This document shows positions 19,746-51,776 of a stretch of DNA of 64,000 nucleotides, piece by piece. Position 1 is the stretch's first letter, and each line of letters begins with the position of its first letter. This stretch comes from Candidatus Nanoarchaeia archaeon (GTDB lineage: Archaea > Nanobdellota > Nanobdellia > SCGC-AAA011-G17 > GW2011-AR17). The DNA lies in assembly GCA_028706745.1 (NCBI GenBank), contig JAQTVM010000001.1, forward strand, positions 12,399 through 76,398, in the 5' to 3' direction. The notes beneath the pieces are model-generated. The model saw only the letters and a program-made list of their open reading frames with translations. It made no database searches and was not told where the DNA came from. The position numbers and the translations under genes were made by a program.

Positions 19746-19753
19746 GTATATAT

Positions 19754-20029
19754 TTAAGCATTCTTATCTAATTTATTCTTCCCCACTTTCCTGCCAGTTT
19801 TTATATTCCACTTTGCCATACATTCTTCAATAGTATACCACATATAGCATCCCCTATCGCCCTTAAATGCCCTGTATAAGAGTCCAAACAAAAACCATTT
19901 GGTTACTCTCTTTTGCTTTGAGAAAAAAGCCCTGAAAGCATATATAAACGCTATCGGACTCCAAATAATGTGCCTATAGAACCTTTTCCAGAAAGGGGGC
20001 TTAGGGTTTTGCGGTTTTGATGGATTCAT
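19754..20029 (-). CDS. hypothetical small protein
   Basis: 91-aa ORF, basic/hydrophobic, no family recognised. Confidence 0.2.
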   Translation of the reverse strand: MNPSKPQNPKPPFWKRFYRHIIWSPIAFIYAFRAFFSKQKRVTKWFLFGLLYRAFKGDRGCYMWYTIEECMAKWNIKTGRKVGKNKLDKNA

Positions 20030-32041: not shown

Positions 32042-35000
32042 TAACCCGGATTAAAAAAAGAGACGGAAGCATTGTTTTTTTTAACAAGGCAAAGATAAGC
32101 GATGCAATATTCAAGGCGGCAAAGTCAGTAGGGGGAAAAGACAGAAGAAGGGCTGAACATCTTGCCTTAATGTCTGTTGAGCTTCTTGAGCAAAGGGGCT
32201 TTTGCGAAGAAAAGATGCCCAATGTCGAGGATGTGCAGGATGCTGTTGAAAAAACGCTCATAGAAGAGGGGCATGCGCAGACAGCAAAAGCATACATAAT
32301 CTACAGGGAGCAGCACAAGAGAATAAGGGAATTCCATTCCTATGTAAACTCAAACGAAATAATGGACGGCTACCTTAACCAGCTTGACTGGAGGGTAAAG
32401 GAAAACAGCAATATGAGCTTCTCGCTCCAGGGATTAAACAACCATATATCATCCATAGTAAGCTCAAACTACTGGCTTCACAAGATTTACCCGCCTGAAG
32501 TGAGGGAAGCGCACATTGAAGGAGACATACATCTTCACGATTTGCAGATACTCGGCTCCTATTGCTGCGGCTGGGACATAATGGACTTGATGATAAAAGG
32601 ATTTGGCGGAGTTCCTGAAAAAGTCGAGAGCATGCCTGCAAGGCACTACAGGGCAATGCTCGGGCAGATAACAAACTTTTTCTACACTCTTCAGGGGGAA
32701 ACAGCAGGTGCGCAGGCATTTTCAAATTTTAATACAATGCTGGCGCCTTTTGTGAAGTATGACCATCTTGAATACAAGGAAGTAAAGCAGGGAATGCAGG
32801 AATTCTTATTTAACATGAATGTGCCGACAAGAGTAGGTTTTCAATGCCTTTCAGCAGACACAGAAATACTTACGCCCACAGGATGGAAAGGATATGGAGA
32901 TATTAACAAAGGCGAGATCATAGAAACATTTAATCTAAGAACAGGAATAATCGAGCATCAAAAAGTTGCCTCTTTTTTTAGAAAGGAATATACGGGCAAG
33001 ATGTACCGCCTGCAAAATCGCATCCAGGACCAGCTTATTTCTCCAAATCACAGAGTTGTAAGAAAAAAATTTCAGACAGGAGAGAATGTTTTGGAGCCTA
33101 TCGAGGAAATTTTGAAGCTCAAGTCTCCTTTTATTATTCCAATTGCCGGAAAAAATAGCAAGCCGGAAGCAAAAATAGAAGACAAGCAGATAAAATTGAT
33201 GGCATGGATTATAAGCGAAGGCACTATTGAAAGGCCAACAAAGTACAGATGCTGTTACAGGGTGAGTATATACCAGTCAAAGATTAAAAATAAAACCAAT
33301 TACAAAGAAATAAAATCACTTTTGCACTATTTTAAACTTGAATTTTCAGAATATGAAGTCGCCTCTTTGGGAGAGAGCGTAACAAGAATGAGGCTGAACG
33401 CAGAAAGCTCAAAAAAAATACATAAATGGTTTGGAAGCAGGGAAAATATCCATTTTATTCCTGATTATTTATTGAATTTAAGCGAAAGGCAATCGCGCTT
33501 GTTTTTGGATACATACATTAAAGGCGAAGGCTTTGAAGGCTGCAAAATATCTGTTTCCGACATAGCCTTGCTAGACAGGCTGCAGATTATCATTGTCAAT
33601 TCAGGATTTGGCTCGAGCATATTAAAACGAAAGCCGACAATCGGCAAGAAAGATATTTTTGTATTAAGGATTATAAGACATAAAGATACGTATATTTCAA
33701 AAGTAAGCCAAGTAAATTACAAAGGAATTATATGGTGCCCGCATACCAAAAATGAGACAGTAATTGCCAGAAGAAGAGGAAAAGTGTTTATTACAGGCAA
33801 TACGCCTTTTACAAATTTAACTCTGGATATTGAAGTGCCTGAAAATCTGAGAAACAGCCACGCAATAATCGGCGGAAAGCCCATGCCCGAAGTGTACGGC
33901 GATTTCCAGAAAGAGGCTGACATGGTAAACAGGGCTTTCCTGGAAGTTATGTCAGAGGGGGATGCAAAAGGGAGGATATTCACATTCCCAATACCTACTT
34001 ATAACATAACAAAAAACATTGATTGGGAAAACCCTGCCCATGACACATTATTTGAAGTTACGTCAAAATTCGGGCTGCCTTATTTTGCAAACTTTGTAAA
34101 CTCAGAGATGAGCCCTGACGATGCAAGAAGCATGTGCTGCAGGCTTAGGCTTGACAACAGGGAATTAAGAAAAAGAAGCGGCGGATTATTTGCTTCAGCC
34201 CCATTGACAGGAAGCATAGGCGTTGTAACACTTAACATGCCTAGGATAGCGTTTGCAGCAAAAGATGAAACAAAATTTGCAGAGCGCGTGGTTGAGCTTA
34301 TGAGAATAGCAAAAACAAGCCTTGACATAAAAAGAAAGGCGGTTGAAAGATTCACGGAGCAGGGGCTTTATCCCTATGCAAAAAAATACCTCGGCGGGGT
34401 AAAACAGGCAACAGGGCAATATTGGGGAAATCATTTCAACACAATAGGGCTTATAGGAATGAACGAGGCGTGCCTTAATATTCTTGGAGAGAACATTGCT
34501 TCAAACAAGGGCAGGAATTTTGCGCTCAGGATTCTTGACGTAATGCGCGAAGAGCTAAGGCAATACCAGGAAAGCACAAACGACAATTATAACCTCGAAG
34601 CAACCCCTGGAGAAGGATGCAGCTACAGGTTTGCAAAGATGGACAGGGAAAGGTTTCCGCAAATAAAAACAGCAGGAGAGCAAGTGCCTTATTACACAAA
34701 CAGCACCCACCTCCCGGTAGGATATACAGACGACATATTTGAAGCGCTTGACCTGCAGGATGAACTTCAGTGCAAGTACACAGGCGGAACAGTGCTTCAC
34801 GGGTTTGTCGGAGAAAGAATATCAGACCCGGAAACATGCAAGAAACTCGTTAAAAAAATAGCCAGTAATTATAAGCTGCCTTACTTTACAATAACCCCGA
34901 CATTCAGCGTATGCCCTGAGCACGGTTATATTGCAGGCGAGCATTCACAATGCAAGAAAGAGACAGCAGAAGGGGCATGCGGAAAGCAGTGCGAAGTTTT

Positions 35001-35142
35001 TTCAAGGGTAGTCGGCTATTACAGACCTGTCCAAAGCTGGAATAATGGGAAAAGAGAGGAGTTCAGGCAGAGAAAAGCTTACTGCGAAAAGAAAAGCATT
35101 GAAAGCATGGAAAAAAAACAGGGATTCAGGTTTGCGATGTAA
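32038..35142 (+). CDS. nrdD: anaerobic ribonucleoside-triphosphate reductase NrdD, intein-containing
   Basis: ATP-cone at N-terminus. The GFQ/TPFTN active-site region is interrupted by a 319-aa insertion. C-terminal Zn ribbon and glycyl-radical motif RVVGYY are present. Extein about 715 aa. Confidence 0.85.
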   Translation: MITRIKKRDGSIVFFNKAKISDAIFKAAKSVGGKDRRRAEHLALMSVELLEQRGFCEEKMPNVEDVQDAVEKTLIEEGHAQTAKAYIIYREQHKRIREFHSYVNSNEIMDGYLNQLDWRVKENSNMSFSLQGLNNHISSIVSSNYWLHKIYPPEVREAHIEGDIHLHDLQILGSYCCGWDIMDLMIKGFGGVPEKVESMPARHYRAMLGQITNFFYTLQGETAGAQAFSNFNTMLAPFVKYDHLEYKEVKQGMQEFLFNMNVPTRVGFQCLSADTEILTPTGWKGYGDINKGEIIETFNLRTGIIEHQKVASFFRKEYTGKMYRLQNRIQDQLISPNHRVVRKKFQTGENVLEPIEEILKLKSPFIIPIAGKNSKPEAKIEDKQIKLMAWIISEGTIERPTKYRCCYRVSIYQSKIKNKTNYKEIKSLLHYFKLEFSEYEVASLGESVTRMRLNAESSKKIHKWFGSRENIHFIPDYLLNLSERQSRLFLDTYIKGEGFEGCKISVSDIALLDRLQIIIVNSGFGSSILKRKPTIGKKDIFVLRIIRHKDTYISKVSQVNYKGIIWCPHTKNETVIARRRGKVFITGNTPFTNLTLDIEVPENLRNSHAIIGGKPMPEVYGDFQKEADMVNRAFLEVMSEGDAKGRIFTFPIPTYNITKNIDWENPAHDTLFEVTSKFGLPYFANFVNSEMSPDDARSMCCRLRLDNRELRKRSGGLFASAPLTGSIGVVTLNMPRIAFAAKDETKFAERVVELMRIAKTSLDIKRKAVERFTEQGLYPYAKKYLGGVKQATGQYWGNHFNTIGLIGMNEACLNILGENIASNKGRNFALRILDVMREELRQYQESTNDNYNLEATPGEGCSYRFAKMDRERFPQIKTAGEQVPYYTNSTHLPVGYTDDIFEALDLQDELQCKYTGGTVLHGFVGERISDPETCKKLVKKIASNYKLPYFTITPTFSVCPEHGYIAGEHSQCKKETAEGACGKQCEVFSRVVGYYRPVQSWNNGKREEFRQRKAYCEKKSIESMEKKQGFRFAM
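32845..33801 (+). mobile_element. intein (Cys1 ... terminal Asn, +1 Thr) with degenerate LAGLIDADG-like homing-endonuclease region
   Basis: Starts CLSADTEIL (block A) right after GFQ and ends ...VFITGN followed by TPFTNLT; internal LMAWIISEGT and FLDTYIKGEGF blocks. Confidence 0.7.
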
Positions 35143-35143
35143 G

Positions 35144-35836
35144 ATGGAGATTGCAGGATTAAAAAAAACATCTCTCGTGGATTATCCGGGCACCATATCT
35201 GCTGTTATTTTTCTTTCTGGATGCAATTTCAGGTGCGGATTCTGCCATAATCCGTCCGTTGTTTTTGGAAAGTCAGCAAAGATAGATGAAAAAGAGGTAA
35301 TGGATTTCCTTGAAAGGAGAAAAAGAGTTCTAGAAGGCGTATGCGTAACAGGAGGTGAGCCGACTATTCACGATAACCTTCCTATGCTTTTAAAAAAAAT
35401 AAAATCAATGGGCTTTTTGGCAAAGCTTGACACAAACGGCACAAATCCTGAAATGCTGAAAAAGATTATAGAAGAAAATATTGTGGATTATGTGGCAATG
35501 GACATAAAGGCGCCGCTTGAGACATATTCTTTTGCTGCAAATGCAGATGTTAATATCAAAAAAATAAAAGAGAGCATGCGGATTCTAATGGAATCAAAAA
35601 TAAAATATGAGTTTCGCATGACTTTACTGCCTAAGTTTGTCAGCATTGAAAGCTTTAAAGAAATATGCGAAATGCTCAAAGGGGCAAAACGATTCTATAT
35701 CCAGCAGTTTGAAAAAGGAAGCGAGATGATTGACTGCGCATTTAAGTCGGAAAAAGCATACACTAAAGAAGAGCTGAATGAGTTTCTTAATGTTGCAAAA
35801 GAATATTTTGAAGAATGCGGCATACGGAACGCTTAA
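35144..35836 (+). CDS. nrdG: anaerobic RNR activating enzyme NrdG (radical SAM)
   Basis: CNFRCGFCHN; the ATG at 35144 immediately follows the nrdD stop. Confidence 0.75.
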   Translation: MEIAGLKKTSLVDYPGTISAVIFLSGCNFRCGFCHNPSVVFGKSAKIDEKEVMDFLERRKRVLEGVCVTGGEPTIHDNLPMLLKKIKSMGFLAKLDTNGTNPEMLKKIIEENIVDYVAMDIKAPLETYSFAANADVNIKKIKESMRILMESKIKYEFRMTLLPKFVSIESFKEICEMLKGAKRFYIQQFEKGSEMIDCAFKSEKAYTKEELNEFLNVAKEYFEECGIRNA

Positions 35837-36204
35837 TCTTCCTGCTCTTCAGAGTCTTCGCTTTCCTCTTCAGAAGGTTCTTTTGGATTAAGCCTGAACA
35901 TTATTGTACCCCGGTAAATCTGCTTGCCCGTCATCCTGTCCATTGTATGAAGAGTTCTTGTAATCTTAAGCTCGCCCTTGAAAGCATGCTTCAGCTTTTT
36001 ACCTATTGCCCTTGCATAGCTCTGGGAAGACATGTAAATGTCAATTCCATAGTCGAATTCCTTTATTTTTGAAATTGAAACATTCGGCCTTTCTTTTATC
36101 CTGTTCATTACAAAACTGACAACTTCCTCATCTGCAGGCCTGAGCTGGATTACTGCCTCATAATATTCAGCATGCCTCTGTATAACCTGATTTGGCTTGT
36201 TCAT
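35833..36204 (-). CDS. conserved hypothetical protein with acidic C-terminal tail
   Basis: 123-aa ORF; no confident family assignment. Confidence 0.3.
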   Translation of the reverse strand: MNKPNQVIQRHAEYYEAVIQLRPADEEVVSFVMNRIKERPNVSISKIKEFDYGIDIYMSSQSYARAIGKKLKHAFKGELKITRTLHTMDRMTGKQIYRGTIMFRLNPKEPSEEESEDSEEQED

Positions 36205-36207
36205 TAT

Positions 36208-36498
36208 TCACACCGCAAATATGCATGCCACAGGCACTTTTCCTATCTTCTTTACGCAATTCTTGTCCACGAATCCGCGCTTGACTGCAAACTCAACCGC
36301 ATTTTTTCCGACAATTGTTGCATTGCCTGTCGCCTCGAGTATTTCAGCAACAAAATCCTCGCTTCTTGCCTCGCCCTTGAAAAACCGCTCGATAATTTCA
36401 ATTTTTTCTGTTTTTGTCTCGAAAGTTTTCCCTATTAGGTTTTCATCGCAGAGAGAAACAATGCCTTTCGGATGTATTTTGATAAGTATTCTAACCAT
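36208..36498 (-). CDS. small conserved archaeal protein (DUF424-like)
   Basis: 96 aa; the pattern and the aIF2-beta neighbourhood resemble DUF424. Confidence 0.35.
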   Translation of the reverse strand: MVRILIKIHPKGIVSLCDENLIGKTFETKTEKIEIIERFFKGEARSEDFVAEILEATGNATIVGKNAVEFAVKRGFVDKNCVKKIGKVPVACIFAV

Positions 36499-36519
36499 TT
36501 GCCACCAACTATAACCTGC

Positions 36520-36945
36520 CTAAGCTATCTTTGCCTTGACAGGGTGCTTTGCGCCGCAGGCAGAGCAGTGCATGAAAAGCACATTGCCTTCCTTCTTCAG
36601 CTGGGTGTCAGGCCTGTTGCATTCTGTGCAAAGCACGAAATCCTTTGCAAACTGCTCTACCTTTGAATTAATCAGCATTGAAGTCAGCTTTCTTCCAAGA
36701 ATAAGCCTTGCTCCGTCAATCGCGGCAGGTGTTGCAAGCTCTCTCTGGAGGTATTTCAAAACCTGCGCCGGCTCTCTCCTGAATATGCTGCAGATGTCTA
36801 TGAAGTTTGCGATTATTGTCTTGTTGCCCTCAACATGCCCTCTTACCTTGGGTATCTCAAACCTTTCTGATTTAAGATGCACGTCAGGCAAAAGCTCCTT
36901 TGCCCTCTTGAGCAATGCGCGGTAATCAAAGATGTTTTCAGCCAT
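36520..36945 (-). CDS. eif2b: translation initiation factor 2 beta subunit
   Basis: KTIIANF...ELAT...C-TEC-...CSACGA zinc ribbon; 141 aa. Confidence 0.85.
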   Translation of the reverse strand: MAENIFDYRALLKRAKELLPDVHLKSERFEIPKVRGHVEGNKTIIANFIDICSIFRREPAQVLKYLQRELATPAAIDGARLILGRKLTSMLINSKVEQFAKDFVLCTECNRPDTQLKKEGNVLFMHCSACGAKHPVKAKIA

Positions 36946-36968
36946 AAATAAGACGAAAATAAGGTGAT

Positions 36969-36992
36969 TTATAATACTTTGCCTTAAAGCGC
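36969..36992. repeat. 24-bp direct repeat TTATAATACTTTGCCTTAAAGCGC (copy 1)
   Basis: Identical to 38480..38503. Contains a TATA-like TTTATAATA/TTTAAGG on the minus strand about 25 bp upstream of the aIF2-beta ATG, and overlaps the HEPN stop codon. Confidence 0.9.
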
Positions 36993-37454
36993 ATTTAGCT
37001 TCATTAGTATCTCCTCTTTGAGCTTATTGAAATAAAGCCTGAATTGCAGCTCAATTTTTTTCCAATCATCAAAGTTGACAGGTGTACCATAATAATGGAT
37101 TCCATTCCTTTTGGTCCTCACTATTTCAAAGAAATCCCAATCAAAATCCAATTCAGGATGTATTTCACATAAATAAGCAAAAAGGCACTGGTGGTTATCA
37201 ATTTTAATCCTGTCAAAACGCAGAAAAGATTCAGCCATTTCATGCAGTGCATCATAATAAAGCTTGTATACGCTGTTCCATTCGATGCTGTCTTTAGGAA
37301 TATCTGCAATAAGGCGGTTGGCTGAACTTATGTCGCCTTCTGCAATATCCAATGTTGACTTTATCTTATGAATATCAACGAACTCAACAGCTAAGAATTT
37401 GCCTTCCTTTTTGCATCTGCAAAATGCATCTTTTAGCACAAGATATTCAGGCAT
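36984..37454 (-). CDS. HEPN domain protein (toxin-antitoxin component)
   Basis: R-x4-6-H motif RTKRNGIHY; 8-nt overlap with the upstream MNT gene. Confidence 0.6.
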   Translation of the reverse strand: MPEYLVLKDAFCRCKKEGKFLAVEFVDIHKIKSTLDIAEGDISSANRLIADIPKDSIEWNSVYKLYYDALHEMAESFLRFDRIKIDNHQCLFAYLCEIHPELDFDWDFFEIVRTKRNGIHYYGTPVNFDDWKKIELQFRLYFNKLKEEILMKLNAL

Positions 37455-44993: not shown

Positions 44994-45323
44994 TTACTGT
45001 CTTAAGCCGGCCAGCTTTGAAACAAGCTCATTGAAAACAACCTGCTTTTTTTCTTTTGGCAAAGAAAACAATATTTTCTGAACCATTGCCTCTGATATTG
45101 TAAAGATGTAATTAAGCTTGATTATGCTGTCTTTTACAGCGCCTTCTTTCCTTGAAAGCGCAATCCCTTCCATTGAAGTGTTGGATGTTATCCCTGCAAC
45201 AGCCACATTGCCGTGCTCCTCAAATAATACAAGAGCAGGCCGCTTTTTAACTTCAAAAGTGTCCGCAAATTGGACAGAGGCAAGCACCACATCTCCCGCC
45301 TTAAGCATTCTCCCACACCTCAT
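44994..45323 (-). CDS. MazF/PemK-family toxin
   Basis: GDVVLASVQF...KKRPALVL...VAGITSN pattern of the CcdB/MazF fold. Confidence 0.55.
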   Translation of the reverse strand: MRCGRMLKAGDVVLASVQFADTFEVKKRPALVLFEEHGNVAVAGITSNTSMEGIALSRKEGAVKDSIIKLNYIFTISEAMVQKILFSLPKEKKQVVFNELVSKLAGLRQ

Positions 45324-45522
45324 CTTCCTTGTTGTCCCAAAGCTCTTTCATCTTTTGCTGTTGTATCTTGTGCAGGAATTCATCGTATTGGTTTCTTTTC
45401 TTTACGCTATGGAATACCTTTATCATATGCTCAATCAGCTCGGCATAAGTCTGCCTTGGATATTCCTTCAGCTCCTGCATTGCCTTAACAAGCGCCTTGT
45501 CTATCTGTATTGTCGTGTTCAT
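45301..45522 (-). CDS. ribbon-helix-helix antitoxin (partner of MazF-like toxin)
   Basis: Internal Met start MNTTIQIDKALVKAMQEL; 23-nt overlap with the toxin gene. Confidence 0.45.
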   Translation of the reverse strand: MNTTIQIDKALVKAMQELKEYPRQTYAELIEHMIKVFHSVKKRNQYDEFLHKIQQQKMKELWDNKEDEVWENA

Positions 45523-45600
45523 TATATATTCACTATAGTTGGCATATAATCTATTATATATAAGCCTTGCGGATGTTTTGGTTTTGACTATATTTTCCAT

Positions 45601-46434
45601 TCAGGCGCACCCCTCTTTCCTTAAGCCGTCATAAGGGCTTTTAACCGAAATAAAGGCAGAAGGGCACATGTGCACATAAACCATTGTTGTTTCCGCACTG
45701 CTGTGCCCCATCAGGGGCTGGACAGCTGAAACACTGTATCCATTTTCAATCAAATGAGTTGCAAAAGAATGCCTTAATGAATGCGGATGAACCTTCTTCT
45801 TAATGCCTGCCTTTCTTGCAGCATCCCTTACAGTCTCCTGCACGCTCCTCGGATGAAGCGGAAAGCCATTTCTTCCTGCAAACAGCCAATCCTCTCCTGC
45901 ATCACAAACAGCCTTTTTCAGCCTTTCACGCAGGCACTCTGCTATAATAAAAGGCCTGTCCTTGTTTCCCTTTCCGTGCCTTACCCATCCAATGCATCTC
46001 TCAAATTCAAAATCAATAGTTCTTAGGTTAAGAGCCTCGCTTACCCTTAATCCTGCAGAATACAACAACTCAAGAATAAGCCTGTGCTTTTCATTATCAA
46101 CAGCAGAAAAAAGTCGAAGCACCTCATCTTTTGTAAGGAATACAGGCAGCGTTTTCGGCACCTTTGAATACTTAATCCGCCAAGTGACTCTTTTGTGCAA
46201 AACCTCTTCCATCAGGAACTTCAGCGCATTCACGTGCACGTTCAGCGTATTGCCGCACTTATTCTCCGCAACAAGCACGTCGATATAATCCCTAACATCC
46301 TTTGACGTAACGCGCATGAATTCCTTAGGGCAAAAGCGCATGAACTGCCTGACACACTGTATATAAGTAAGGATTGTCTTTCGGCTTAGCCCTCTTCTAA
46401 GCATCTCTTTTTGCATGTTGTAGATAGCGTCCAT
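45601..46434 (-). CDS. tyrosine recombinase, XerC/XerD/XerA-like, without IntI-specific insertion
   Basis: C-terminal HPHSLRHSFATHLIENGYSVSAVQPLMGHSSAETTMVYVHM (R..HxxR...Y). Only ~55 aa lie between the KGNKDR and LRHSF boxes, versus ~100 aa in IntI. Start taken at MDAIYNM (46434). Transcribed away from the cassette array. Confidence 0.8.
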   Translation of the reverse strand: MDAIYNMQKEMLRRGLSRKTILTYIQCVRQFMRFCPKEFMRVTSKDVRDYIDVLVAENKCGNTLNVHVNALKFLMEEVLHKRVTWRIKYSKVPKTLPVFLTKDEVLRLFSAVDNEKHRLILELLYSAGLRVSEALNLRTIDFEFERCIGWVRHGKGNKDRPFIIAECLRERLKKAVCDAGEDWLFAGRNGFPLHPRSVQETVRDAARKAGIKKKVHPHSLRHSFATHLIENGYSVSAVQPLMGHSSAETTMVYVHMCPSAFISVKSPYDGLRKEGCA

Positions 46435-46620: not shown

Positions 46621-46705
46621 ACGTGACGACAAAAAATCAAACAATGGCTCTACCAAAAGCCGCCTGAAACCCGCAAAAAGAATGAATTCCTGTGTCTTCT
46701 CGCAT

Positions 46706-46736
46706 ATAGACTGTTAGGCAACATTTGGGTTTGGGC
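46706..46736. repeat. attI-like junction: unique left half (CATATAGACT) plus conserved right half GTTAGGCAACATTT plus left inverted repeat of cassette 1
   Basis: GTTAGGCAACATTTGGG is identical to the start of cassette 4; the left side is unrelated to the attC-like left half. Confidence 0.55.
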
Positions 46737-46748
46737 TAAAAACACTTC

Positions 46749-46979
46749 TTAGAATTTTGCATATAATGGTTCTTTGGGAATTTTTATCATGTAACTATGT
46801 TTACCAACAATTATAATTCCTTCTTCTAAGCCCCATTCAAATAAGTCTTGAGGATTAAACTCAGGAGGAACTCCACCCCTATAAGGTCTAGCCATTAAAC
46901 CTTCTATTCCCTTTCTTAATGCGATAGGCTCAAAAATATGTCCGTCTATTTCTGAAAAAAATTTGTATATATCAAACAT
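46749..46979 (-). CDS. cassette 1 ORF, hypothetical 76 aa
   Basis: Bracketed by the inverted repeats TTTGGGTTTGGGC (46724-46736) and GCCCAAACCCAAA (47038-47050). Confidence 0.35.
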   Translation of the reverse strand: MFDIYKFFSEIDGHIFEPIALRKGIEGLMARPYRGGVPPEFNPQDLFEWGLEEGIIIVGKHSYMIKIPKEPLYAKF

Positions 46980-47037
46980 TTTTTACTCCTATTCATTGTT
47001 AATATTATACCCCTATATAAGTATTATGGTTTTAAAC

Positions 47038-47162
47038 GCCCAAACCCAAACGCTGCGCCCCTGCGGGGGCTTGCCCGACCAGCTCTGGAGCTTGCTGTGA
47101 GGCTCACTTCGCTCGCACTCCAGCTGCGCTCCGAGGGTCGGGTCGCCTAACAGTCGTTAGGC
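47038..47162. repeat. attC-like site 1: cassette IR plus GC-rich module plus palindromic core GCCTAACAGTCGTTAGGC (47145-47162)
   Basis: about 70% GC in a <40% GC genome; conserved blocks AAACGCTGCGCCCCTGCGGGGGCTTGCCCG ... CGAGGGTCGGGTCGCCTAACAGTCGTTAGGCA. Confidence 0.7.
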
Positions 47163-47233
47163 ACAATTTGAGTTGGGACTTCCCCACCGACAAAAGCAAT
47201 ACATTTATATATTTCTAGCAATTTACAAAGGAT

Positions 47234-47566
47234 ATGGTTAGAAAAATATTAAGAAAAACAATAGAAGATTTACCTGTTTGGAAAATAAAATATGGATTAA
47301 CAAGAGGCGATCTAATTCTTATTCATGAATTAGCATTAATCACATTTAAACCTAATGTATTAAATAACTATTTTAAACAAGAGATGGGTGGGGTTCTTGG
47401 TCGTAATCAAGATTGCTCCATTATTTACTTTGCTCGCAATCTCCTTTTAGAAAAGGGTTTGCCACATGCTTTTGTCGGAATGAAATCTGATATGGATGGA
47501 GAAGATTATAAGTTAATACCTGTATCAGATATAGAATCTTACGAAACTCTTAAATTAAAACCTTAA
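47234..47566 (+). CDS. cassette 2 ORF, hypothetical 110 aa
   Basis: Bracketed by TTTGAGTTGGGAC (47167-47179) and GTCCCAACTCAAA (47579-47591). Confidence 0.35.
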   Translation: MVRKILRKTIEDLPVWKIKYGLTRGDLILIHELALITFKPNVLNNYFKQEMGGVLGRNQDCSIIYFARNLLLEKGLPHAFVGMKSDMDGEDYKLIPVSDIESYETLKLKP

Positions 47567-47578
47567 TTGTATATATTC

Positions 47579-47714
47579 GTCCCAACTCAAACTTCTCCGC
47601 TCCTCGCCTGCGGGCTGCGGTGCTCGACCTGCGCAGCTCTGGGCTCGTCAGGAGTGCTCGCTGTCGCTCGCCTCGACTTCGCCCGAGGCGCAGGGTGCCT
47701 AACAGTCGTTAGGC
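47579..47714. repeat. attC-like site 2 (divergent GC-rich module plus core 47697-47714)
   Basis: Same terminal GCCTAACAGTCGTTAGGCAACATT; the GC-rich body is more diverged than at sites 1, 3 and 4. Confidence 0.65.
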
Positions 47715-47766
47715 AACATTTTCCAAAAAGTCCGAAAACACAAAAAGGGAAAGGAAAAAGAATTAT

Positions 47767-48075
47767 CTAAATTCTAGCAGCAACCAAGGGATTATAATAA
47801 TAATCAAACACTAACATAACTGGGGATTTGTTATATATTTTCACTAATTGCCAACCACACTCTTGTTTAGAGGTATGTTTATATTGTTCAAGTACCTTAC
47901 TAAGAGTTCTAATATTTATATCATTTCCAAAAGTTATAGTAGCATGACAAGAAGTTTCATCAGAAGTATAATTATATTCCTTCTCCAATCTCAAAGCTTT
48001 ATTTAATGCTTTACGGATCTTTTGTTCAAGATTTTGATTTGGTGTTGTCTTATCTACTCTTAATTTTATATCCAT
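47767..48075 (-). CDS. cassette 3 ORF, hypothetical 102 aa
   Basis: Bracketed by ATTTTCCAAAAAGTCCG (47718-47734) and CGGACTTTTGGAAAAC (48193-48208). Confidence 0.35.
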   Translation of the reverse strand: MDIKLRVDKTTPNQNLEQKIRKALNKALRLEKEYNYTSDETSCHATITFGNDINIRTLSKVLEQYKHTSKQECGWQLVKIYNKSPVMLVFDYYYNPLVAARI

Positions 48076-48192
48076 TTTTACCCCCTACAATGTTGTTATT
48101 TAAGAGATATGACAAATATATAAGCCTTTCGGTGAGAGGTTATTTATTCCTTTCCCTCATTAACCTATCATTAAAGGGCTTCGCCCCGTTAG

Positions 48193-48313
48193 CGGACTTT
48201 TGGAAAACGCTGCGCCCTGCGGGGCTTGCCCGCTCATCCTCGAACTCGCCATGATGGCTCGCTCCGCTCGCCTCGGCTCGTTCGGGGAGCGGGTCGCCTA
48301 ACAGTCGTTAGGC
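48193..48313. repeat. attC-like site 3 (GC-rich module plus core 48296-48313)
   Basis: see site 1. Confidence 0.7.
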
Positions 48314-48332
48314 AACATTTGGGAACCGAAAC

Positions 48333-48560
48333 TCAGTCCCTTAAAGGCAATTTTCCACATATTTCATCAAAGTGTGTAACCTTGATATCATATAGAGAAT
48401 AAGTAGAATATTTTGTACCAAAGTTATCATTTATTGCATTTATTGCCAATGTGTAGGCTACTACTTTATCTTCATTAGGTTTTCCAAATCCATTTAATTC
48501 ATGTAATACCATATGTTGTAGCGATTTTACGACTTTGTCTAAAGAAGTTTGTTCTGTCAT
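48333..48560 (-). CDS. cassette 4 ORF, hypothetical 75 aa
   Basis: Bracketed by TTTGGGAACCGAAA (48318-48331) and TTTCGGTTCCCAAAC (48608-48622). Confidence 0.35.
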   Translation of the reverse strand: MTEQTSLDKVVKSLQHMVLHELNGFGKPNEDKVVAYTLAINAINDNFGTKYSTYSLYDIKVTHFDEICGKLPLRD

Positions 48561-48607
48561 TATAATACCACCTCAATAGGAAAGAATTATCTTTCAGTTT
48601 TTATAGC

Positions 48608-48754
48608 TTTCGGTTCCCAAACGCTGCGCCCCTGCGGGGGCTTGCCCGCCCAGCTCTGGGGCTTGCCCGCCCAGCTCTGGGGCTTGCCAGGATGGCTCGC
48701 TACCGCTCGCCTCGGCTGCGCCCCGAGGGTCGGGTCGCCTAACAGTCGTTAGGC
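48608..48754. repeat. attC-like site 4 (GC-rich module with internal 21-bp tandem duplication plus core 48737-48754)
   Basis: CTTGCCCGCCCAGCTCTGGGG occurs twice inside the module. Confidence 0.7.
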
Positions 48755-48810
48755 AAAATTACAGGCGGCTCATAAGACTAATAACAAGAAAAGAACAAAC
48801 GGCGGGCGGC

Positions 48811-49281
48811 TTATTGGCTGTTTTTCCATTTTTCCCACAAATGTGCAGCGTCTCTTACATTCAGGCTTTCAAATAGATAATTATACATATTTATTGCGGT
48901 TTGCCTGGCAGGGCGCTCTTCGTAAATCAGCCCAAAGCCATGTTCCTGTTCTGCTATGTCATATACGTCAAGAGTCTGGTTGCATCCTGTATCTATAAAC
49001 CTTTCATAAAAGAATCCGCCGGGCTGTGGCTTTTTGCTAATAAGGTTTTCACAGCCCCCATAAACAACTACTGTAAATGTAGGGCTATTATAGCTTTCGC
49101 GGTGCTCAAAGGTATATTCGCCACATTCTACCCTAAAGCCCTCTTCCATAAAGGCAACATTTGCTTCATTGCATATATTGCCTATTGTATCTATTGTCGT
49201 TTCTCTATTATTTACACCTGTTGTTGCGCATCCTGCTCCAAGTGCAAGTGCTGCTAATCCACCAAATATTGCTTTTTTCAT
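48811..49281 (-). CDS. putative secreted lipoprotein (cassette 5)
   Basis: Signal peptide with LGAGC lipobox-like Cys; paralogous to the next gene; locally elevated GC. Confidence 0.4.
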   Translation of the reverse strand: MKKAIFGGLAALALGAGCATTGVNNRETTIDTIGNICNEANVAFMEEGFRVECGEYTFEHRESYNSPTFTVVVYGGCENLISKKPQPGGFFYERFIDTGCNQTLDVYDIAEQEHGFGLIYEERPARQTAINMYNYLFESLNVRDAAHLWEKWKNSQ

Positions 49282-49335
49282 TTTGATTTACCTCCCTCAA
49301 TATATCTTATACAGCAATAATCTACTGCGGGCGGC

Positions 49336-49878
49336 TTATAATTTTTCTTTTGCCTGATGCCATTCCGCAATAAGTCGCTCAACATCAAATGTACTTGTGA
49401 TTGTCTGCATATATGAATCATATGCACTATTGCGGAATGCCTGCGCTTGCTCTTCCGCCCCGGGTTCCTCTAAATCAAAGGAGCACCGCAGCCCGCAGGT
49501 GAAGAGCGGAGAAAGAGGACCAGCAGGTCCATGCTCAAATGTCCTGTCGCAACCTTCGTCTGAAAAATATTGATGATTTATCTGTGCATCTGACTGAAAC
49601 ACGTCCAATGTTATTCTTACGCATCCTGTACTCTCCGCATATTCCTGCCTTCTCCATACTGTTTCTGATTCCAAATTGCCGTTATTTACAACTCTTACCG
49701 CAAGTTCTAATTGTTCTTCATTCCAATAAATATCGCCAGAAATAACTTCTGCCCCATTTTGCGTCAGGACATTACTACTTTGACCGTACAAAGGCAGATC
49801 CCTTGCGCAATCTAATCCGGCTGCTGCTAAAGTCGCCAATCCGGCAACCGCGACTGATGATATTATTCTTGCTTTCAT
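49336..49878 (-). CDS. putative secreted lipoprotein paralog (cassette 5)
   Basis: Signal peptide AAAGLDC; similar C-terminal region (..AEWHQAKEK vs ..HLWEKWKN); flanking sequence duplicated (ACAGCAATAATC..). Confidence 0.4.
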   Translation of the reverse strand: MKARIISSVAVAGLATLAAAGLDCARDLPLYGQSSNVLTQNGAEVISGDIYWNEEQLELAVRVVNNGNLESETVWRRQEYAESTGCVRITLDVFQSDAQINHQYFSDEGCDRTFEHGPAGPLSPLFTCGLRCSFDLEEPGAEEQAQAFRNSAYDSYMQTITSTFDVERLIAEWHQAKEKL

Positions 49879-50079
49879 TTTGATTTACCCCCTAAACATA
49901 CTTTCTACAGCAATAATCCACTCCTTCCTTATAAGCCTTACGGAGAACGCCGCCCGCCAACGACGAATATGCCGCCTGTAACTCACCAGATGTCGCTCGC
50001 TGCGGCTCGCTACATCGGTGCCGCGCAGCAGCAGGCTCGCCGTGAAGCTATATTCAACTGTCCGATATATTCGGACAAT

Positions 50080-50595
50080 TCAGCTAAAAATAATATCTTT
50101 CGTCGCATCAATTAATTCTTTACAAATATTTTTTAATTTACTTATCTTCGCCTCATTCTCAACAGAAATCTGCACGCCGTATGTATAGTCCTCCCTCATG
50201 CCAATAATGCTGTCCATATCTTCATATTCCAATAATTCAATAAACTTATCATCCAGGCTGATCTTTTTCTCTTCTTTCAAATATCTCATTAAAGCAATTG
50301 TGCATGTCTGGTTTCCGGATTCAAACCCGAATTTTGCCGCAATAGCCAAAAAGCAATGATAAATGCAATAAAACCCGGCTGACATTGACCAGTCTGAAAA
50401 TCCGTCTCTTTTAAAAACAGTTATCCCATCCAGGTCATGCTCTGCCTTTGCAAGATGCTTTTTTGCTTCCTCAATATCCGGCTTGCCTTTCAATAATCCC
50501 CTGTGCTTTAGCCTTTTCCCTAACTTTTTGCATTCTTCAATCTCTTTTTTTGCCTTGTTCAGGCACCATTCAATTTGGTTAAAAGCGTGCGGCAT
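50080..50595 (-). CDS. HEPN-like domain protein (partner of downstream MNT), cassette 5
   Basis: N-terminal helix pattern AKKHLAKAEHDL typical of HEPN; 17-nt overlap with the MNT gene; HEPN Rx4-6H motif not clearly identified. Confidence 0.35.
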   Translation of the reverse strand: MPHAFNQIEWCLNKAKKEIEECKKLGKRLKHRGLLKGKPDIEEAKKHLAKAEHDLDGITVFKRDGFSDWSMSAGFYCIYHCFLAIAAKFGFESGNQTCTIALMRYLKEEKKISLDDKFIELLEYEDMDSIIGMREDYTYGVQISVENEAKISKLKNICKELIDATKDIIFS

Positions 50596-51169
50596 CTTTC
50601 ATTATCTCCACATATTTATCCTGCCCATATAATACAATAGCATTTTTGACTATATCAATAATGGCTTTGTTTCTCTTTTTAAGGTTTTCCAGCAAATCTT
50701 GCTGTGTCACCATAATAGCATGAAGCTTTTTAGGCAGCATCTCTTCTTTTTTGTTAATGAATTTATTTATTTCTTTAATATCATTTTTATTCATCACAAC
50801 CATAATATCAATATCGCTTGCCTGAACATAGTTCTTAATGGCAGAGCCGTAAATCATTACAATCCTGCCTTCCTTAAAAACTTCCTTAAATTCCTCTTTC
50901 CATCTTTTGAAGCTATTGGCTTCATCAGCAAGCAAGAAAGCTATAAGCTGGCTGACATAAGCCTCCTCAAAATTCAGCCTGTAATTTATTGATTTGCCTA
51001 TTTGCCTGCTTATTACTAAATTTTCCTTAAACAGCCTTTTGAACAGCTTTTGGGCGCCAACATGGCTTATATCCAGTATCTTGCTTATGGAGTTGGCATT
51101 ATAAAATGCAGTGAACTCCTTGAATAAAACAAGCAAGCATTCCCTTTCAGTTAACGTTAAAGACACCAT
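50579..51169 (-). CDS. wHTH plus minimal nucleotidyltransferase protein (cassette 5)
   Basis: IYGSAIKNYVQASDIDIMVV NTase motif; N-terminal wHTH; same architecture as 37447..38073. Confidence 0.6.
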   Translation of the reverse strand: MVSLTLTERECLLVLFKEFTAFYNANSISKILDISHVGAQKLFKRLFKENLVISRQIGKSINYRLNFEEAYVSQLIAFLLADEANSFKRWKEEFKEVFKEGRIVMIYGSAIKNYVQASDIDIMVVMNKNDIKEINKFINKKEEMLPKKLHAIMVTQQDLLENLKKRNKAIIDIVKNAIVLYGQDKYVEIMKDAARF

Positions 51170-51312
51170 ATTAACTCCAAGTTACTATATAGAAACTATG
51201 AATTACTATATAAACCTTTCTATCCCTAATGACGAAAAACCCCACCTCCTTTATTTTTCGGACAAATAGAGCCTGCGGCGGAGAGATATATCGCCCACCA
51301 AGCCTTATGTCT

Positions 51313-51330
51313 TCCTAACAGTCGTTAGGC
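51313..51330. repeat. core site 5 (TCCTAAC-AGTC-GTTAGGC) without GC-rich module
   Basis: seen directly; followed by GAAATTACAGGCGGCTCACAAGACTAATAACAA, near-identical to the start of cassette 5 (48755-48790). Confidence 0.7.
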
Positions 51331-51395
51331 AGAAATTACAGGCGGCTCACAAGACTAATAACAACTATTAAATATCTGCAAAGCATAATCCTAAT

Positions 51396-51776
51396 ATGAA
51401 AAGAAAGGTTGGGCTCTTTGTTTACTGGACTCCAAGAATATTATCCATAATCTTCTTATTGTTCCTTGCATTAATGTCCCTTGACATCTTTGACGGCAAT
51501 TACGGATTTTGGGGCACAATACTGGGCTTGTTCATGCATAACATACCTGCATTTATCCTGCTTATAATCCTGTTAATCTCCTGGAATCACGAGATTGTGG
51601 GAGGAATCGGCTTTATCCTTGCAGGGATTGCATATGCCTCACTTATCATATCTCATCTGATTAAAACCGGATTTGAATGGTATTATCTGGCGTGGATATT
51701 GCAAATCTCAGGGGTTGCATTTCTTATAGGAATCCTTTTTCTTATTGGCTGGTTCAAGAAAAATAAGAAAAAATAA
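51396..51776 (+). CDS. membrane protein (4 TM), function unknown
   Basis: 126 aa, hydrophobic helices; after the last core site. Confidence 0.35.
   Translation: MKRKVGLFVYWTPRILSIIFLLFLALMSLDIFDGNYGFWGTILGLFMHNIPAFILLIILLISWNHEIVGGIGFILAGIAYASLIISHLIKTGFEWYYLAWILQISGVAFLIGILFLIGWFKKNKKK

What the first reader, a model, noticed from the sequence alone, without database searches (positions are those of the whole stretch)
47038..48754. attC-like sites have an unusual composite architecture: ~110-bp GC-rich module plus tight 18-bp palindrome
Four boundaries (47038-47162, 47579-47714, 48193-48313, 48608-48754) share the conserved sequence AAACGCTGCGCCCCTGCGGGGGCTTGCCCG ... CTCGC.TC.GCT ... CGAGGGTCGGGTCGCCTAACAGTCGTTAGGCAACATTT. 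The module is about 70% GC, while the surrounding genome is below 40%. It is made of short self-complementary hairpins (GCCCCTGCGGGGGC, CCCGAGGGTCGGG). Unlike canonical attC, where RYYYAAC and GTTRRRY lie 50-130 bp apart at opposite ends, here they abut with a 4-bp spacer. The extended arms GTCGCCTAA / TTAGGCAAC with a CAGTCG overlap resemble a 9-6-9 tyrosine-recombinase core. Site 4 contains an internal 21-bp tandem duplication, and site 2 has a diverged body but an identical terminus.
Basis: seen in the sequence. Interest (0 to 1): 0.8.

Follow-up and report, generated by a model that had tools for sequence, protein, structure and literature searches.

The report
Archaeal Xer-type gene-cassette array sites
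The repeats are the recombination sites of an integron-like gene-cassette array in a DPANN (Nanoarchaeia) archaeon, but they are run by a Xer-type recombinase and built differently from bacterial attC sites, which bears on how integrons arose.

Summary
Four exact copies of GCCTAACAGTCGTTAGGC, each preceded by a roughly 60-70% GC module, lie at the stated coordinates. A fifth copy lies at 51313 and an attI-like half-site at 46702-46719, next to a tyrosine recombinase gene (45601-46434, minus strand).

The sites bound single-gene cassettes. Related groundwater contigs carry the same cassettes in other orders, and contigs with identical recombinases differ in the cassettes next to a conserved attI (ttcGCATATA-N4-GTTA). 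Linkage of variants places the crossover inside TAAC-N3/4-GTTA.

This is not a canonical integron. The recombinase is XerA-like and lacks the IntI-specific insertion. A covariance model built from published archaeal attC sites matches only its R-box stem to the palindrome.

- Each cassette's two ends are complementary to each other (9-bp arms plus a 13-19-nt cassette-specific stem).
- The GC module is an optional, mosaic side branch.
- The same architecture recurs in at least four sequence families.

Best reading: an integron-like platform with an inverted site geometry, in which the conserved core lies at the tip of the hairpin. Whether the substrate is folded single-stranded DNA or duplex DNA is unresolved. 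I found no published description.

The parts
45601..46434 (-). Tyrosine recombinase, 277 aa from MDAIYNMQ, XerA-like, without the IntI-specific insertion
   Evidence: Pfam Phage_integrase 1.5e-41 plus SAM_4. NCBIfam recomb_XerA_Arch scores 214.8 bits against a cutoff of 220; the integron integrase model scores 197 against 265, in two stretches. In the alignment to VchIntIA (2a3v), chain residues 183-245 have no counterpart. It is the only tyrosine recombinase in the window. It is 100% identical to P0001, labelled Candidatus Nanoarchaeia archaeon.
46696..46719 (+). attI: cttctcGCATATA-GACT-G|TTAGGC, a non-palindromic insertion site
   Evidence: The left arm (c)ttcGCATATA-N4-GTTA is conserved upstream of the recombinase gene in W, L015, L029, L031, L032, L033, L034, L035 and L038. 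Sequences diverge right after GTTA(G) in contig pairs with identical recombinases (L032/L033 and L034/L035).
46714..47156 (+). Cassette 1: X stem 46724-46736, ORF 46749-46979 (minus strand), X' stem 47038-47050, module 47051-47144, left core arm
   Evidence: Homology to L002 starts exactly at 46713.
47145..47162 (+). Core palindrome 1: GCCTAAC-AGTC-GTTAGGC
47157..47708 (+). Cassette 2: X 47167-47179, ORF 47234-47566 (plus strand), X' 47579-47591, module 47592-47696 (diverged type b)
47697..47714 (+). Core palindrome 2
47709..48307 (+). Cassette 3: X 47719-47734, ORF 47767-48075 (minus strand), X' 48193-48207, module 48208-48295
48296..48313 (+). Core palindrome 3
48308..48748 (+). Cassette 4: X 48318-48331, ORF 48333-48560 (minus strand), X' 48608-48621, module 48622-48736 with a 21-bp tandem duplication at 48637-48688
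48737..48754 (+). Core palindrome 4
48749..50045 (+). Cassette 5, which has lost its core: X 48759-48769, two lipoprotein-like ORFs (48811-49281 and 49336-49878, minus strand), X' 49971-49981, truncated module 49982-50045
   Evidence: The intact homologue of the module, with its palindrome, is in L013. The module segment W 49929-50022 is also found in L002, and L004 matches W 49883-50010.
50080..51324 (+). HEPN / nucleotidyltransferase toxin-antitoxin cassette whose start is missing. Its end is X' 51293-51311 abutting the core with no GC module.
   Evidence: Pfam HEPN and Polbeta/NTP_transf_2. X' is the reverse complement of the cassette start 'aacataaggcttggtgggcg' seen in L008, L020, L002 and L038. 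The homologous cassette end in L002 carries a module.
51313..51330 (+). Core palindrome 5 (TCCTAAC-AGTC-GTTAGGC), the last site of the array

Best explanation
This is a chromosomal gene-cassette platform of a Nanoarchaeia (DPANN) archaeon. It works like an integron but is built from different parts.

A XerA-type tyrosine recombinase (45601-46434) recombines short core sites of the form xxxxxTAAC-N3/4-GTTAxxxxx. New cassettes enter at a conserved, non-palindromic attI (ttcGCATATA-N4-G|TTA) next to the recombinase gene. Cassettes leave by recombination between the two cores that flank them. The crossover lies inside the core, most likely at G|TTA. That equals bottom-strand xxTAA|C, the position used in integrons.

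The 6 bp before TTAGGC differ between attI (AGACTG) and the cassette sites (CAGTCG). Insertion therefore probably proceeds by exchange of one strand pair, completed by replication, as in integron attI x attC and CTX-phage/Xer reactions (inferred).

Each cassette carries the right half of one core at its start and the left half of the next at its end. Those two ends are complementary to each other: 9-bp arms, then a 13-19-nt cassette-specific stem. The excised cassette can therefore fold into a long hairpin with the conserved core at its tip. The GC-rich module is an optional, mosaic set of two extra hairpins inserted between the outer stem and the left arm. Cassettes appear to carry their own TATA-like promoters.

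Shown: array structure, cassette mobility, crossover interval, complementarity of cassette ends, recombinase type. Inferred: single-strand exchange, folding in vivo, role of the module.
For: Array and sites:
- There are five cores plus attI beside the only tyrosine recombinase in the window.

Mobility:
- The cassette-1 homologue in L002 follows a different module, and homology starts exactly at W 46713.
- The cassette beginning 'cacaattgaacgaaaatcc' follows five different modules.
- The module ending 'cctggctcgggt' is followed by three different cassettes.
- L032 and L033 have identical recombinases and flanks and share 9 distal sites. They differ in the proximal 6 versus 2 sites, with breakpoints at attI GTTA and at a core. 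L034 and L035 behave likewise.

Crossover interval:
- The right-arm variant GTTATGC and the linker travel with the following cassette.
- Spacer position 1 (A/C) travels with the preceding module.

Complementarity of cassette ends:
- The duplex energy of a cassette's start against its own pre-module segment has a median of -16.0 kcal/mol, against -7.7 for other cassettes (n=30; Mann-Whitney p=5e-16).
- The 5-nt arms are perfectly complementary in 20/39 same-cassette pairs, against 6/52 within the same site. Arms pair for exactly 5 nt beyond TAAC/GTTA.

Strand asymmetry and loop length:
- The bottom strand folds better in 26/30 cassettes.
- A conserved C.A on top equals G.T on the bottom at the stem base.
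- In L079 the core closing pair exists only on the bottom strand.
- Spacers of 3 and 4 nt occur within one array.

Module and generality:
- The module is optional: compare site 5 with L002.
- The same architecture appears in four families: AGTC, ACG, GGG and ACTG/ATTA.

Host:
- The flanking genes are archaeal housekeeping genes: MCM, PolD, aminoacyl-tRNA synthetases.
Against: - No recombination has been observed directly. I looked for no excised circles or empty-site reads.
- The geometry is awkward for a folded substrate. With cleavage at xxTAA|C, the side that should hold the partner arm is the 3-4-nt hairpin loop, so a hairpin offers only a half-site. A duplex core (8/9-bp arms with a 5/6-bp overlap) fits tyrosine-recombinase chemistry better, but it does not explain why cassette ends are complementary.
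- Arm covariation in family A is weak (6 agree, 4 disagree). The family B statistic rests on about 16 cassettes with one dominant arm type.
- The better folding of the bottom strand may partly reflect G+T composition.
- Consensus folding of the modules found no covarying structure.
- The recombinase could simply be the host's housekeeping XerA.
Confidence: 0.75

Rival explanations
1. This is the host's chromosome-dimer resolution locus. The recombinase is the housekeeping XerA, the first site is dif, and the cassettes are miniature IMEX-type parasites that integrate at dif as duplex DNA by ordinary Xer recombination. The outer inverted repeats and GC modules would be incidental or regulatory.
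For: - The best family match is archaeal XerA, at 214.8 bits, and the best solved relatives are XerA structures 4a8e and 5hxy.
- There is a single recombinase in 64 kb, within a conserved housekeeping neighbourhood.
- The core has dif-like inner symmetry, CTAA-N6-TTAG, and XerA recombines dif without partner proteins (PMC2958812, PMC8371274).
- A 53%-identical homologue has no array (L077).
Against: - Archaeal dif is 11-6-11, single copy, near-palindromic, and not adjacent to xerA (PMC2958812; PMC8371274 section 20). Here attI is asymmetric (GCATATA versus TTAGGC), and its left arm is conserved separately from the cassette sites.
- The overlap sequences of attI and the cassette sites differ, and spacer lengths of 3 and 4 nt coexist. 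Complete two-strand exchange is therefore unlikely.
- Duplex recombination gives no reason for cassette-specific complementarity of cassette ends.
- Known IMEX elements are kilobase-sized phages or islands, not cassettes of about 450 bp with one ORF.
Confidence: 0.15
2. This is a canonical integron, or a cluster of attC sites lacking an integrase (a CALIN), whose attC sites are merely degenerate.
For: The R-box sequences GCCTAAC/GTTAGGC and the preceding (A)GTC are the same as in published archaeal attCs. There is an array beside an integrase with an attI. NCBI names some homologues 'integron integrase'.
Against: - The IntI-specific insertion is absent.
- A model built from 5 published archaeal attCs finds bacterial attC_aadA1 at 47.9 bits. 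It aligns only its 7-bp R stem to these sites, at 13.4 bits, with 58 interior positions deleted.
- The architecture is conserved across four families rather than decayed.
- Ghaly et al. report that archaeal IntIs carry the additional domain and that archaeal attCs have the canonical fold (PMC9668308).
Confidence: 0.03
3. The modules and palindromes are repeats unrelated to recombination: MITE or REP-like elements, transcription terminators, or structured RNAs.
For: - The modules form stable hairpins, with z about -3 for sites 1-3.
- The same 18-mer serves as a terminator-like hairpin followed by a T-run in unrelated gut-bacterial contigs.
- G.T pairs on the bottom strand would also be G.U pairs in transcripts of the mostly minus-strand ORFs.
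Against: - The repeats are confined to the array next to the recombinase.
- There is no Rfam match.
- There are no target-site duplications. The flanks of one module are unrelated, while the flanks of one cassette are complementary.
- Presence/absence polymorphisms break exactly at the cores.
- No T-run follows the palindrome in this window.
Confidence: 0.05

Closest known systems
Integrons (IntI, attI, attC; including the archaeal integrons of Ghaly et al. 2022, PMC9668308)
   Same: - A tyrosine recombinase gene sits next to an attI, followed by an array of short, mostly single-ORF cassettes.
- The RYYYAAC/GTTRRRY box sequence is the same, and the crossover is compatible with G|TT.
- The end of a cassette is complementary to its own start.
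- Variation concentrates at the attI-proximal end.
- Toxin-antitoxin cassettes are present.
- Site similarity is high within an array.
   Different: - The recombinase lacks the IntI-specific domain and scores best as XerA.
- The site has no L box, unpaired central spacer or variable terminal structure. R'' and R' are 3-4 nt apart.
- Pairing extends outward from the R box (cassette-specific stem) instead of inward, so the crossover is at the hairpin tip rather than its base.
- A GC-rich accessory module lies outside R''.
- Cassettes seem to have their own promoters, and most ORFs point toward the recombinase gene.
Xer/dif and IMEX elements (CTX, VGJ and TLC phages; own knowledge plus PMC9226527, PMC2958812)
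   Same: The recombinase is Xer-type. The core has dif-like inner symmetry (xTAA-N5/6-TTAx). Elements are integrated in tandem at one site. Single-strand exchange is plausible where overlaps differ. CTX phage uses a folded single strand.
   Different: dif is single copy and 11-6-11. IMEX elements are phages or islands. In the CTX hairpin the two arms lie along the stem, whereas here the two arms pair with each other. Here the insertion site has a dedicated conserved attI left arm.
pdif modules of Acinetobacter plasmids (own knowledge)
   Same: Small gene modules, often toxin-antitoxin or accessory genes, bounded by Xer-type sites.
   Different: pdif sites alternate in orientation, are XerC/XerD hetero-sites on plasmids, and are not arrayed beside a dedicated recombinase and attI.

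Membership tests
Integron | Integrase with the IntI-specific additional domain around patch III | tested here: not met
   The TIGR02249 model matches in two stretches and scores 197 bits against a cutoff of 265. VchIntIA chain residues 183-245 are unmatched; the query has about 20 aa there.
Integron | attC with R'' and R' at opposite ends, L''/L' boxes, an unpaired central spacer and extrahelical bases | tested here: not met
   Model R1, built from published archaeal attCs, scores 47.9 bits on the attC_aadA1 control. In the window it aligns only the R stem, at 13.4 bits, with 58 interior positions deleted. R1 is small (5 sequences) and missed attC_dfrA1. IntegronFinder's own model was not available.
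Integron | R-box consensus RYYYAAC / GTTRRRY with crossover at G|TT | tested here: met
   The sites read GCCTAAC / GTTAGGC. Linkage of variants confines the crossover to GTC-GTTA. Homology breakpoints fall at the G of GTTAGGC and after GTTA. The exact phosphodiester bond is not resolved.
Integron | An attI next to the integrase gene where new cassettes are inserted | tested here: met
   A conserved ttcGCATATA-N4-GTTA lies upstream of the recombinase gene in 9 loci. The first cassette differs between contigs with identical recombinases.
Integron | Promoterless cassettes expressed from a common promoter Pc | tested here: inconclusive
   TATA-like boxes and Shine-Dalgarno-like motifs precede each ORF (read by eye), and ORF orientations are mixed. 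There is no transcript data.
Integron | The attC site is recombined as a folded bottom strand | not testable with these tools
   Indirect only: cassette ends are complementary, the bottom strand folds better in 26/30 cassettes, and some G.T pairs exist only on the bottom strand.
Xer/dif chromosome dimer resolution | XerA/XerCD-type recombinase | tested here: inconclusive
   NF040815 scores 214.8 bits, just under its 220 cutoff. The best PDB relatives are XerA structures.
Xer/dif chromosome dimer resolution | A single-copy, near-palindromic 11-6-11 dif in the replication terminus region | tested here: not met
   There are five cores plus attI within 4.7 kb. The arms pair for 9 bp, with spacers of 3-4 nt. 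attI is asymmetric. The terminus position is not testable on a contig.
IMEX (elements exploiting host Xer) | An element without its own recombinase that carries a dif-like site and integrates at the host dif | tested here: inconclusive
   Cassettes carry no recombinase and have a dif-like core. Whether attI is the host dif and whether the recombinase is the host's only Xer could not be determined.
MITE / REP elements | Terminal inverted repeats of the element itself, target-site duplication, and dispersed copies | tested here: not met
   The flanks of one module are unrelated, and the inverted repeats flank the cassette instead. No copies lie outside the array.

The most novel reading that the evidence does not exclude
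DPANN archaea may carry a separate, Xer-based counterpart of the integron, either a surviving 'proto-integron' or an independent invention. Its cassette site would be an R box alone at the tip of a cassette-specific hairpin. Its reaction would differ mechanistically from IntI/attC: it needs no L box, no extrahelical-base recognition and no IntI domain. It might run as single-strand exchange on a half-site hairpin, or as a hairpin-forming and hairpin-fusing reaction on a folded single strand. If so, it would give a concrete intermediate between dif/Xer and attC/IntI.
Probability: 0.3. Interest if true: 0.9.

Novelty: new variant of a known kind. Interest (0 to 1): 0.8.

Why it matters
Integrons are the standard example of gene capture by site-specific recombination. 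Their origin is an open question: IntI is thought to derive from a Xer-like enzyme, and the source of attC sites is unknown.

This locus combines a Xer-type enzyme lacking the IntI domain with the integron R-box sequence, a dedicated attI and mobile single-gene cassettes. The site geometry is inverted and simpler than in attC. It recurs in at least four sequence families in Nanoarchaeota/Woesearchaeota contigs.

If the system is active, three things follow:
- It extends cassette-array gene capture to a recombinase type and a host group (small-genome episymbiotic archaea) where standard tools would miss it, because IntegronFinder needs the IntI domain and a canonical attC.
- It offers a testable intermediate for integron evolution.
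- It provides a minimal site, about 22 bp of core, for studying how tyrosine recombinases choose between folded and duplex substrates.

Tried and rejected
- Rfam at gathering thresholds on the whole window gave no match. No tRNA genes were found.
- The viral contig scan for the 18-mer found nothing.
- In the metagenome scan, 19 of 28 loci were unrelated AT-rich terminator-like hairpins in gut bacteria.
- Consensus folding of 20 aligned modules recovered only the palindrome. The modules are mosaics with indels and MAFFT does not align them structurally.
- I considered a crossover at the outer AAC/ATT boundary, about 10 nt to the right. I rejected it because the right arm and linker travel with the following cassette, and because arms are complementary within cassettes rather than within sites.
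- I considered an 'inside-out attC', with the outer stem acting as an L box. I rejected it because cleavage at xxTAA|C faces the loop, not the outer stem.
- The supplementary tables of Ghaly et al. do not contain TAACAGTCGTTA; the held text may be truncated.
- Four literature searches for Xer-type or integron-like cassette arrays in DPANN or other archaea found no description.
- The genome-contig scan by protein returned only one close relative, L038, because of its pattern-based search.
- My early note that the neighbouring gene is EF-2 was wrong for this window. It is a class I aminoacyl-tRNA synthetase. EF-2 is the neighbour in L030 and L031.
- The two lipoprotein-like ORFs of cassette 5 are not detectably paralogous.
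Full report
**1. Observation**

The 18-mer GCCTAACAGTCGTTAGGC occurs exactly four times on the + strand, at 47145, 47697, 48296 and 48737. It occurs once with one mismatch at 51313, and a half-site lies at 46702-46719. None is expected by chance.

Each of the four exact copies is preceded by 90-115 nt of GC-rich sequence. Windows with GC of at least 62% are essentially confined to this array, against a background of about 40%.

Site 2 has a different body and the same terminus. Site 4 contains a perfect 21-bp tandem duplication at 48637-48688.

**2. Context**

Immediately to the left lies the only tyrosine recombinase gene in the window, 45601-46434 on the minus strand.

- It is 100% identical to a protein labelled Candidatus Nanoarchaeia archaeon, from a 106,874-bp contig.
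- The window is archaeal chromosome: MCM, PolD DP2, Cdc48, NrdD and two aminoacyl-tRNA synthetases.
- Between the cores lie single short ORFs of 75-110 aa with no Pfam match. Further along are two lipoprotein-like ORFs and a HEPN/nucleotidyltransferase toxin-antitoxin pair.

**3. Recombinase type**

- The best NCBIfam model is archaeal XerA, at 214.8 bits against a cutoff of 220. The integron-integrase model reaches 197 against 265, and only as two separate stretches.
- Against solved structures the best hits are XerA (4a8e, 5hxy).
- In the alignment to Vibrio IntIA (2a3v), chain residues 183-245 have no counterpart. Those residues hold the IntI-specific insertion.
- The enzyme is therefore Xer-like and is not an IntI by the defining criterion. 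Ghaly et al. state that archaeal IntIs meet that criterion (PMC9668308).

**4. The sites bound mobile cassettes**

A metagenome scan for the 18-mer gave nine related groundwater loci. It also gave 19 unrelated terminator-like hairpins. Fetching contigs of recombinase homologues gave further arrays.

- L002 carries the homologue of cassette 1 behind a different module. Its homology to the window begins exactly at 46713, the G of GTTAGGC.
- One cassette, starting cacaattgaacgaaaatcc, follows five different modules.
- One module, ending cctggctcgggt, precedes three different cassettes.
- L032 and L033 have identical recombinase genes and flanks and share their nine distal sites. They carry six versus two different proximal sites. 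The breakpoints fall at attI GTTA and at a core.
- L034 and L035 likewise diverge right after attI GTTA.

**5. attI**

Upstream of the recombinase gene a non-palindromic site, (c)ttcGCATATA-N4-GTTA, is conserved in the window (46696-46719) and in L015, L029, L031, L032, L033, L034, L035 and L038. Those loci have recombinases 64-84% identical to the window's.

The left arm of attI is distinct from the left arm of the cassette sites, as in integrons.

**6. Crossover position**

- The right-arm variant GTTATGC and the following 4-nt linker stay with the following cassette.
- Position 1 of the spacer (A or C) stays with the preceding module.
- In family B (L032/L033) the 5 nt outside TAAC/GTTA differ among cassettes. 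They are perfectly complementary between the right arm of site n and the left arm of site n+1 in 20 of 39 cases. Within the same site the figure is 6 of 52, and for random pairs 26 of 229.
- The crossover therefore lies between the arms, within GTC-GTTA in this window. That is compatible with the integron position G|TT, which equals bottom-strand GCCTAA|C.
- The six bases before TTAGGC differ between attI (AGACTG) and the cassette sites (CAGTCG). Spacers of 3 and 4 nt coexist in one array.
- From this I infer that complete two-strand exchange is unlikely. Exchange of a single strand pair, followed by replication, is more likely. This mirrors integron attI x attC and CTX-phage/Xer integration (own knowledge).

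**7.

*Cassette-specific inverted repeats.* The 13-19 nt that follow palindrome n, after a 4-nt linker, are the reverse complement of the sequence just before module n+1.

| Cassette | Start-side stem (X) | End-side stem (X') |
|---|---|---|
| 1 | 46724-46736 | 47038-47050 |
| 2 | 47167-47179 | 47579-47591 |
| 3 | 47719-47734 | 48193-48207 |
| 4 | 48318-48331 | 48608-48621 |
| 5 | 48759-48769 | 49971-49981 |

Over 30 unique cassettes from two sequence families, the duplex energy of a cassette's own two ends has a median of -16.0 kcal/mol. Mismatched cassette pairs give -7.7 (p = 5e-16).

Together with the 9-bp arms, this means the junction of an excised cassette would be one long imperfect palindrome. 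The conserved core sits at its centre. This is the reverse of attC, where the conserved boxes are at the base of the hairpin and the centre is variable.

*Predicted fold.* Folding the circularised junctions gives four elements: an outer stem, a small GC hairpin, a long imperfect GC hairpin, and the palindrome hairpin.

*Strand asymmetry.*
- The bottom strand is more stable in 26 of 30 cassettes.
- A conserved C.A (top) = G.T (bottom) pair sits at the inner end of the outer stem, exactly 6 nt after GTTA, in families A and B.
- In L079 the core is TAAC-ACTG-ATTA, so its closing pair forms only on the bottom strand.

**8. The GC module is accessory**

- Site 5 has its outer-stem half (51293-51311) abutting the core with no module. 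The homologous cassette end in L002 has a module inserted at that point.
- The modules are mosaics of interchangeable segments. For example, the first module of L002 combines W 49929-50022 with W 48227-48323.
- Modules are absent outside arrays.
- Sites 1-3 fold better than shuffled controls (z -2.8 to -3.7). Site 4, which carries the duplication, does not.
- Consensus folding found no covarying structure.
- The role of the module is unknown.

**9. Test against canonical attC**

Ghaly et al. list nine archaeal attCs that they tested experimentally. All have R'' (such as GCCTAAC) at the 5' end and ...(A/G)GTC-GTTAGGC at the 3' end.

I built a covariance model from five of them.
- It finds the bacterial attC_aadA1 in a class 1 integron control at 47.9 bits, E 1e-11.
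- In the window, with filters off, it aligns only its 7-bp R''/R' stem to each palindrome, at 13.4 bits. It deletes all 58 interior positions and never uses the GC module as an attC body.
- The palindrome is therefore an R box with a 4-nt loop. The L boxes, central spacer and variable terminal structure are absent.
- The model is small and missed attC_dfrA1, so this is a limited test.

**10. Generality**

The same design recurs with different sequences: a 9-bp-arm core, a GC-rich module on the left, an A/T-rich linker, and then a cassette-specific stem on the right.

| Family | Core | Loci |
|---|---|---|
| A | TAAC-AGTC-GTTA | window, L001, L002, L015, L029-L031, L038 |
| B | TAAC-ACG-GTTA | L032, L033 |
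| C | TAAC-GGG-GTTA | L078 |
| D | TAAC-ACTG-ATTA | L079 |

L038's core has the spacer AATC and one L031 site has ATC; I group both with family A on flanking-sequence similarity. A homologue at 53% identity (L077) has no array.

**11. Mechanism and its limits**

The integron-like function is well supported: capture at attI, and excision between cores.

The physical form of the substrate is not settled.
- For folding: the complementarity of cassette ends, the strand asymmetry and the variable loop length.
- Against folding: cleavage at xxTAA|C faces the loop, so a hairpin presents only a half-site.
- A duplex core fits the chemistry better, but it leaves the complementarity unexplained.
- XerA is reported to bind stem-loops as well as dif (PMC8371274 section 20).

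**12. Known or new**

Four literature searches found no description of Xer-type cassette arrays in DPANN or other archaea. The published archaeal integrons are canonical.

I class this as a new variant of a known kind. It works like an integron, but it fails two defining membership features: the IntI domain and the attC structure.

Noticed in passing
window 48755-48790 and 51331-51365: About 35 nt (AAATTACAGGCGGCTCAyAAGACTAATAACAA) follow both site 4 and the last site 5. The same cassette start follows cores in L004, L010 and L013. At the array end it is only a fragment, followed by a DUF7670 gene (51396-51776). This suggests a truncated terminal cassette.
   Followed up: partly
window 49481-49513: An inverted fragment of module type b (reverse complement of CTTCTCCGCTCCTCGCCTGCGGGCTGCGGTGCTC) lies inside the lipoprotein-like ORF 49336-49878. 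It is 93-94% identical to module segments of L002 and L038. Module sequence appears to have been incorporated into coding sequence.
   Followed up: no
window 50040-50085: Where the module of cassette 5 is truncated, a different 7-5-7 palindrome (TGTCCGA-TATAT-TCGGACA) appears. L008 has 90% similarity to 50053-50082. Its meaning is unknown.
   Followed up: no
window 44994-45600: A MazF/PemK-like toxin (44994-45323) and an overlapping 99-aa ORF (45301-45600) lie directly downstream of the recombinase gene. In L034/L035 a HicAB pair lies between the recombinase gene and attI. Toxin-antitoxin genes seem to be associated with the platform itself.
   Followed up: partly
window 16751-20000: A low-GC island (26-28% against about 41%) contains an N6 DNA methylase (16751-18748). 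It is probably a horizontally acquired restriction-modification region.
   Followed up: no
window about 35000-37000: The cumulative GC skew peaks here and gene orientation switches, between NrdD (ending at 35142) and the MCM region. This is about 10 kb from the array. It could mark a replication origin or terminus, which would bear on the dif question.
   Followed up: no
L029 6338-8992 (locus coordinates): Fragments of IS91-type (Y2_Tnp) and DDE transposases sit between the recombinase gene and the cassette array in this relative.
   Followed up: no
P0027; L036/L037: A 62%-identical recombinase is labelled Candidatus Nomurabacteria (a CPR bacterium) in NCBI. It occurs on 25 contigs, and L036 has TAAC-ATC-GTTA sites. 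This reflects either mis-binning or cross-domain spread of the platform.
   Followed up: no
L005, L007, L012, L014, L016 and others: The identical 18-mer GCCTAACAGTCGTTAGGC recurs in AT-rich human-gut and other contigs as a hairpin followed by a T-run. These look like intrinsic terminators and are unrelated to the archaeal arrays.
   Followed up: partly
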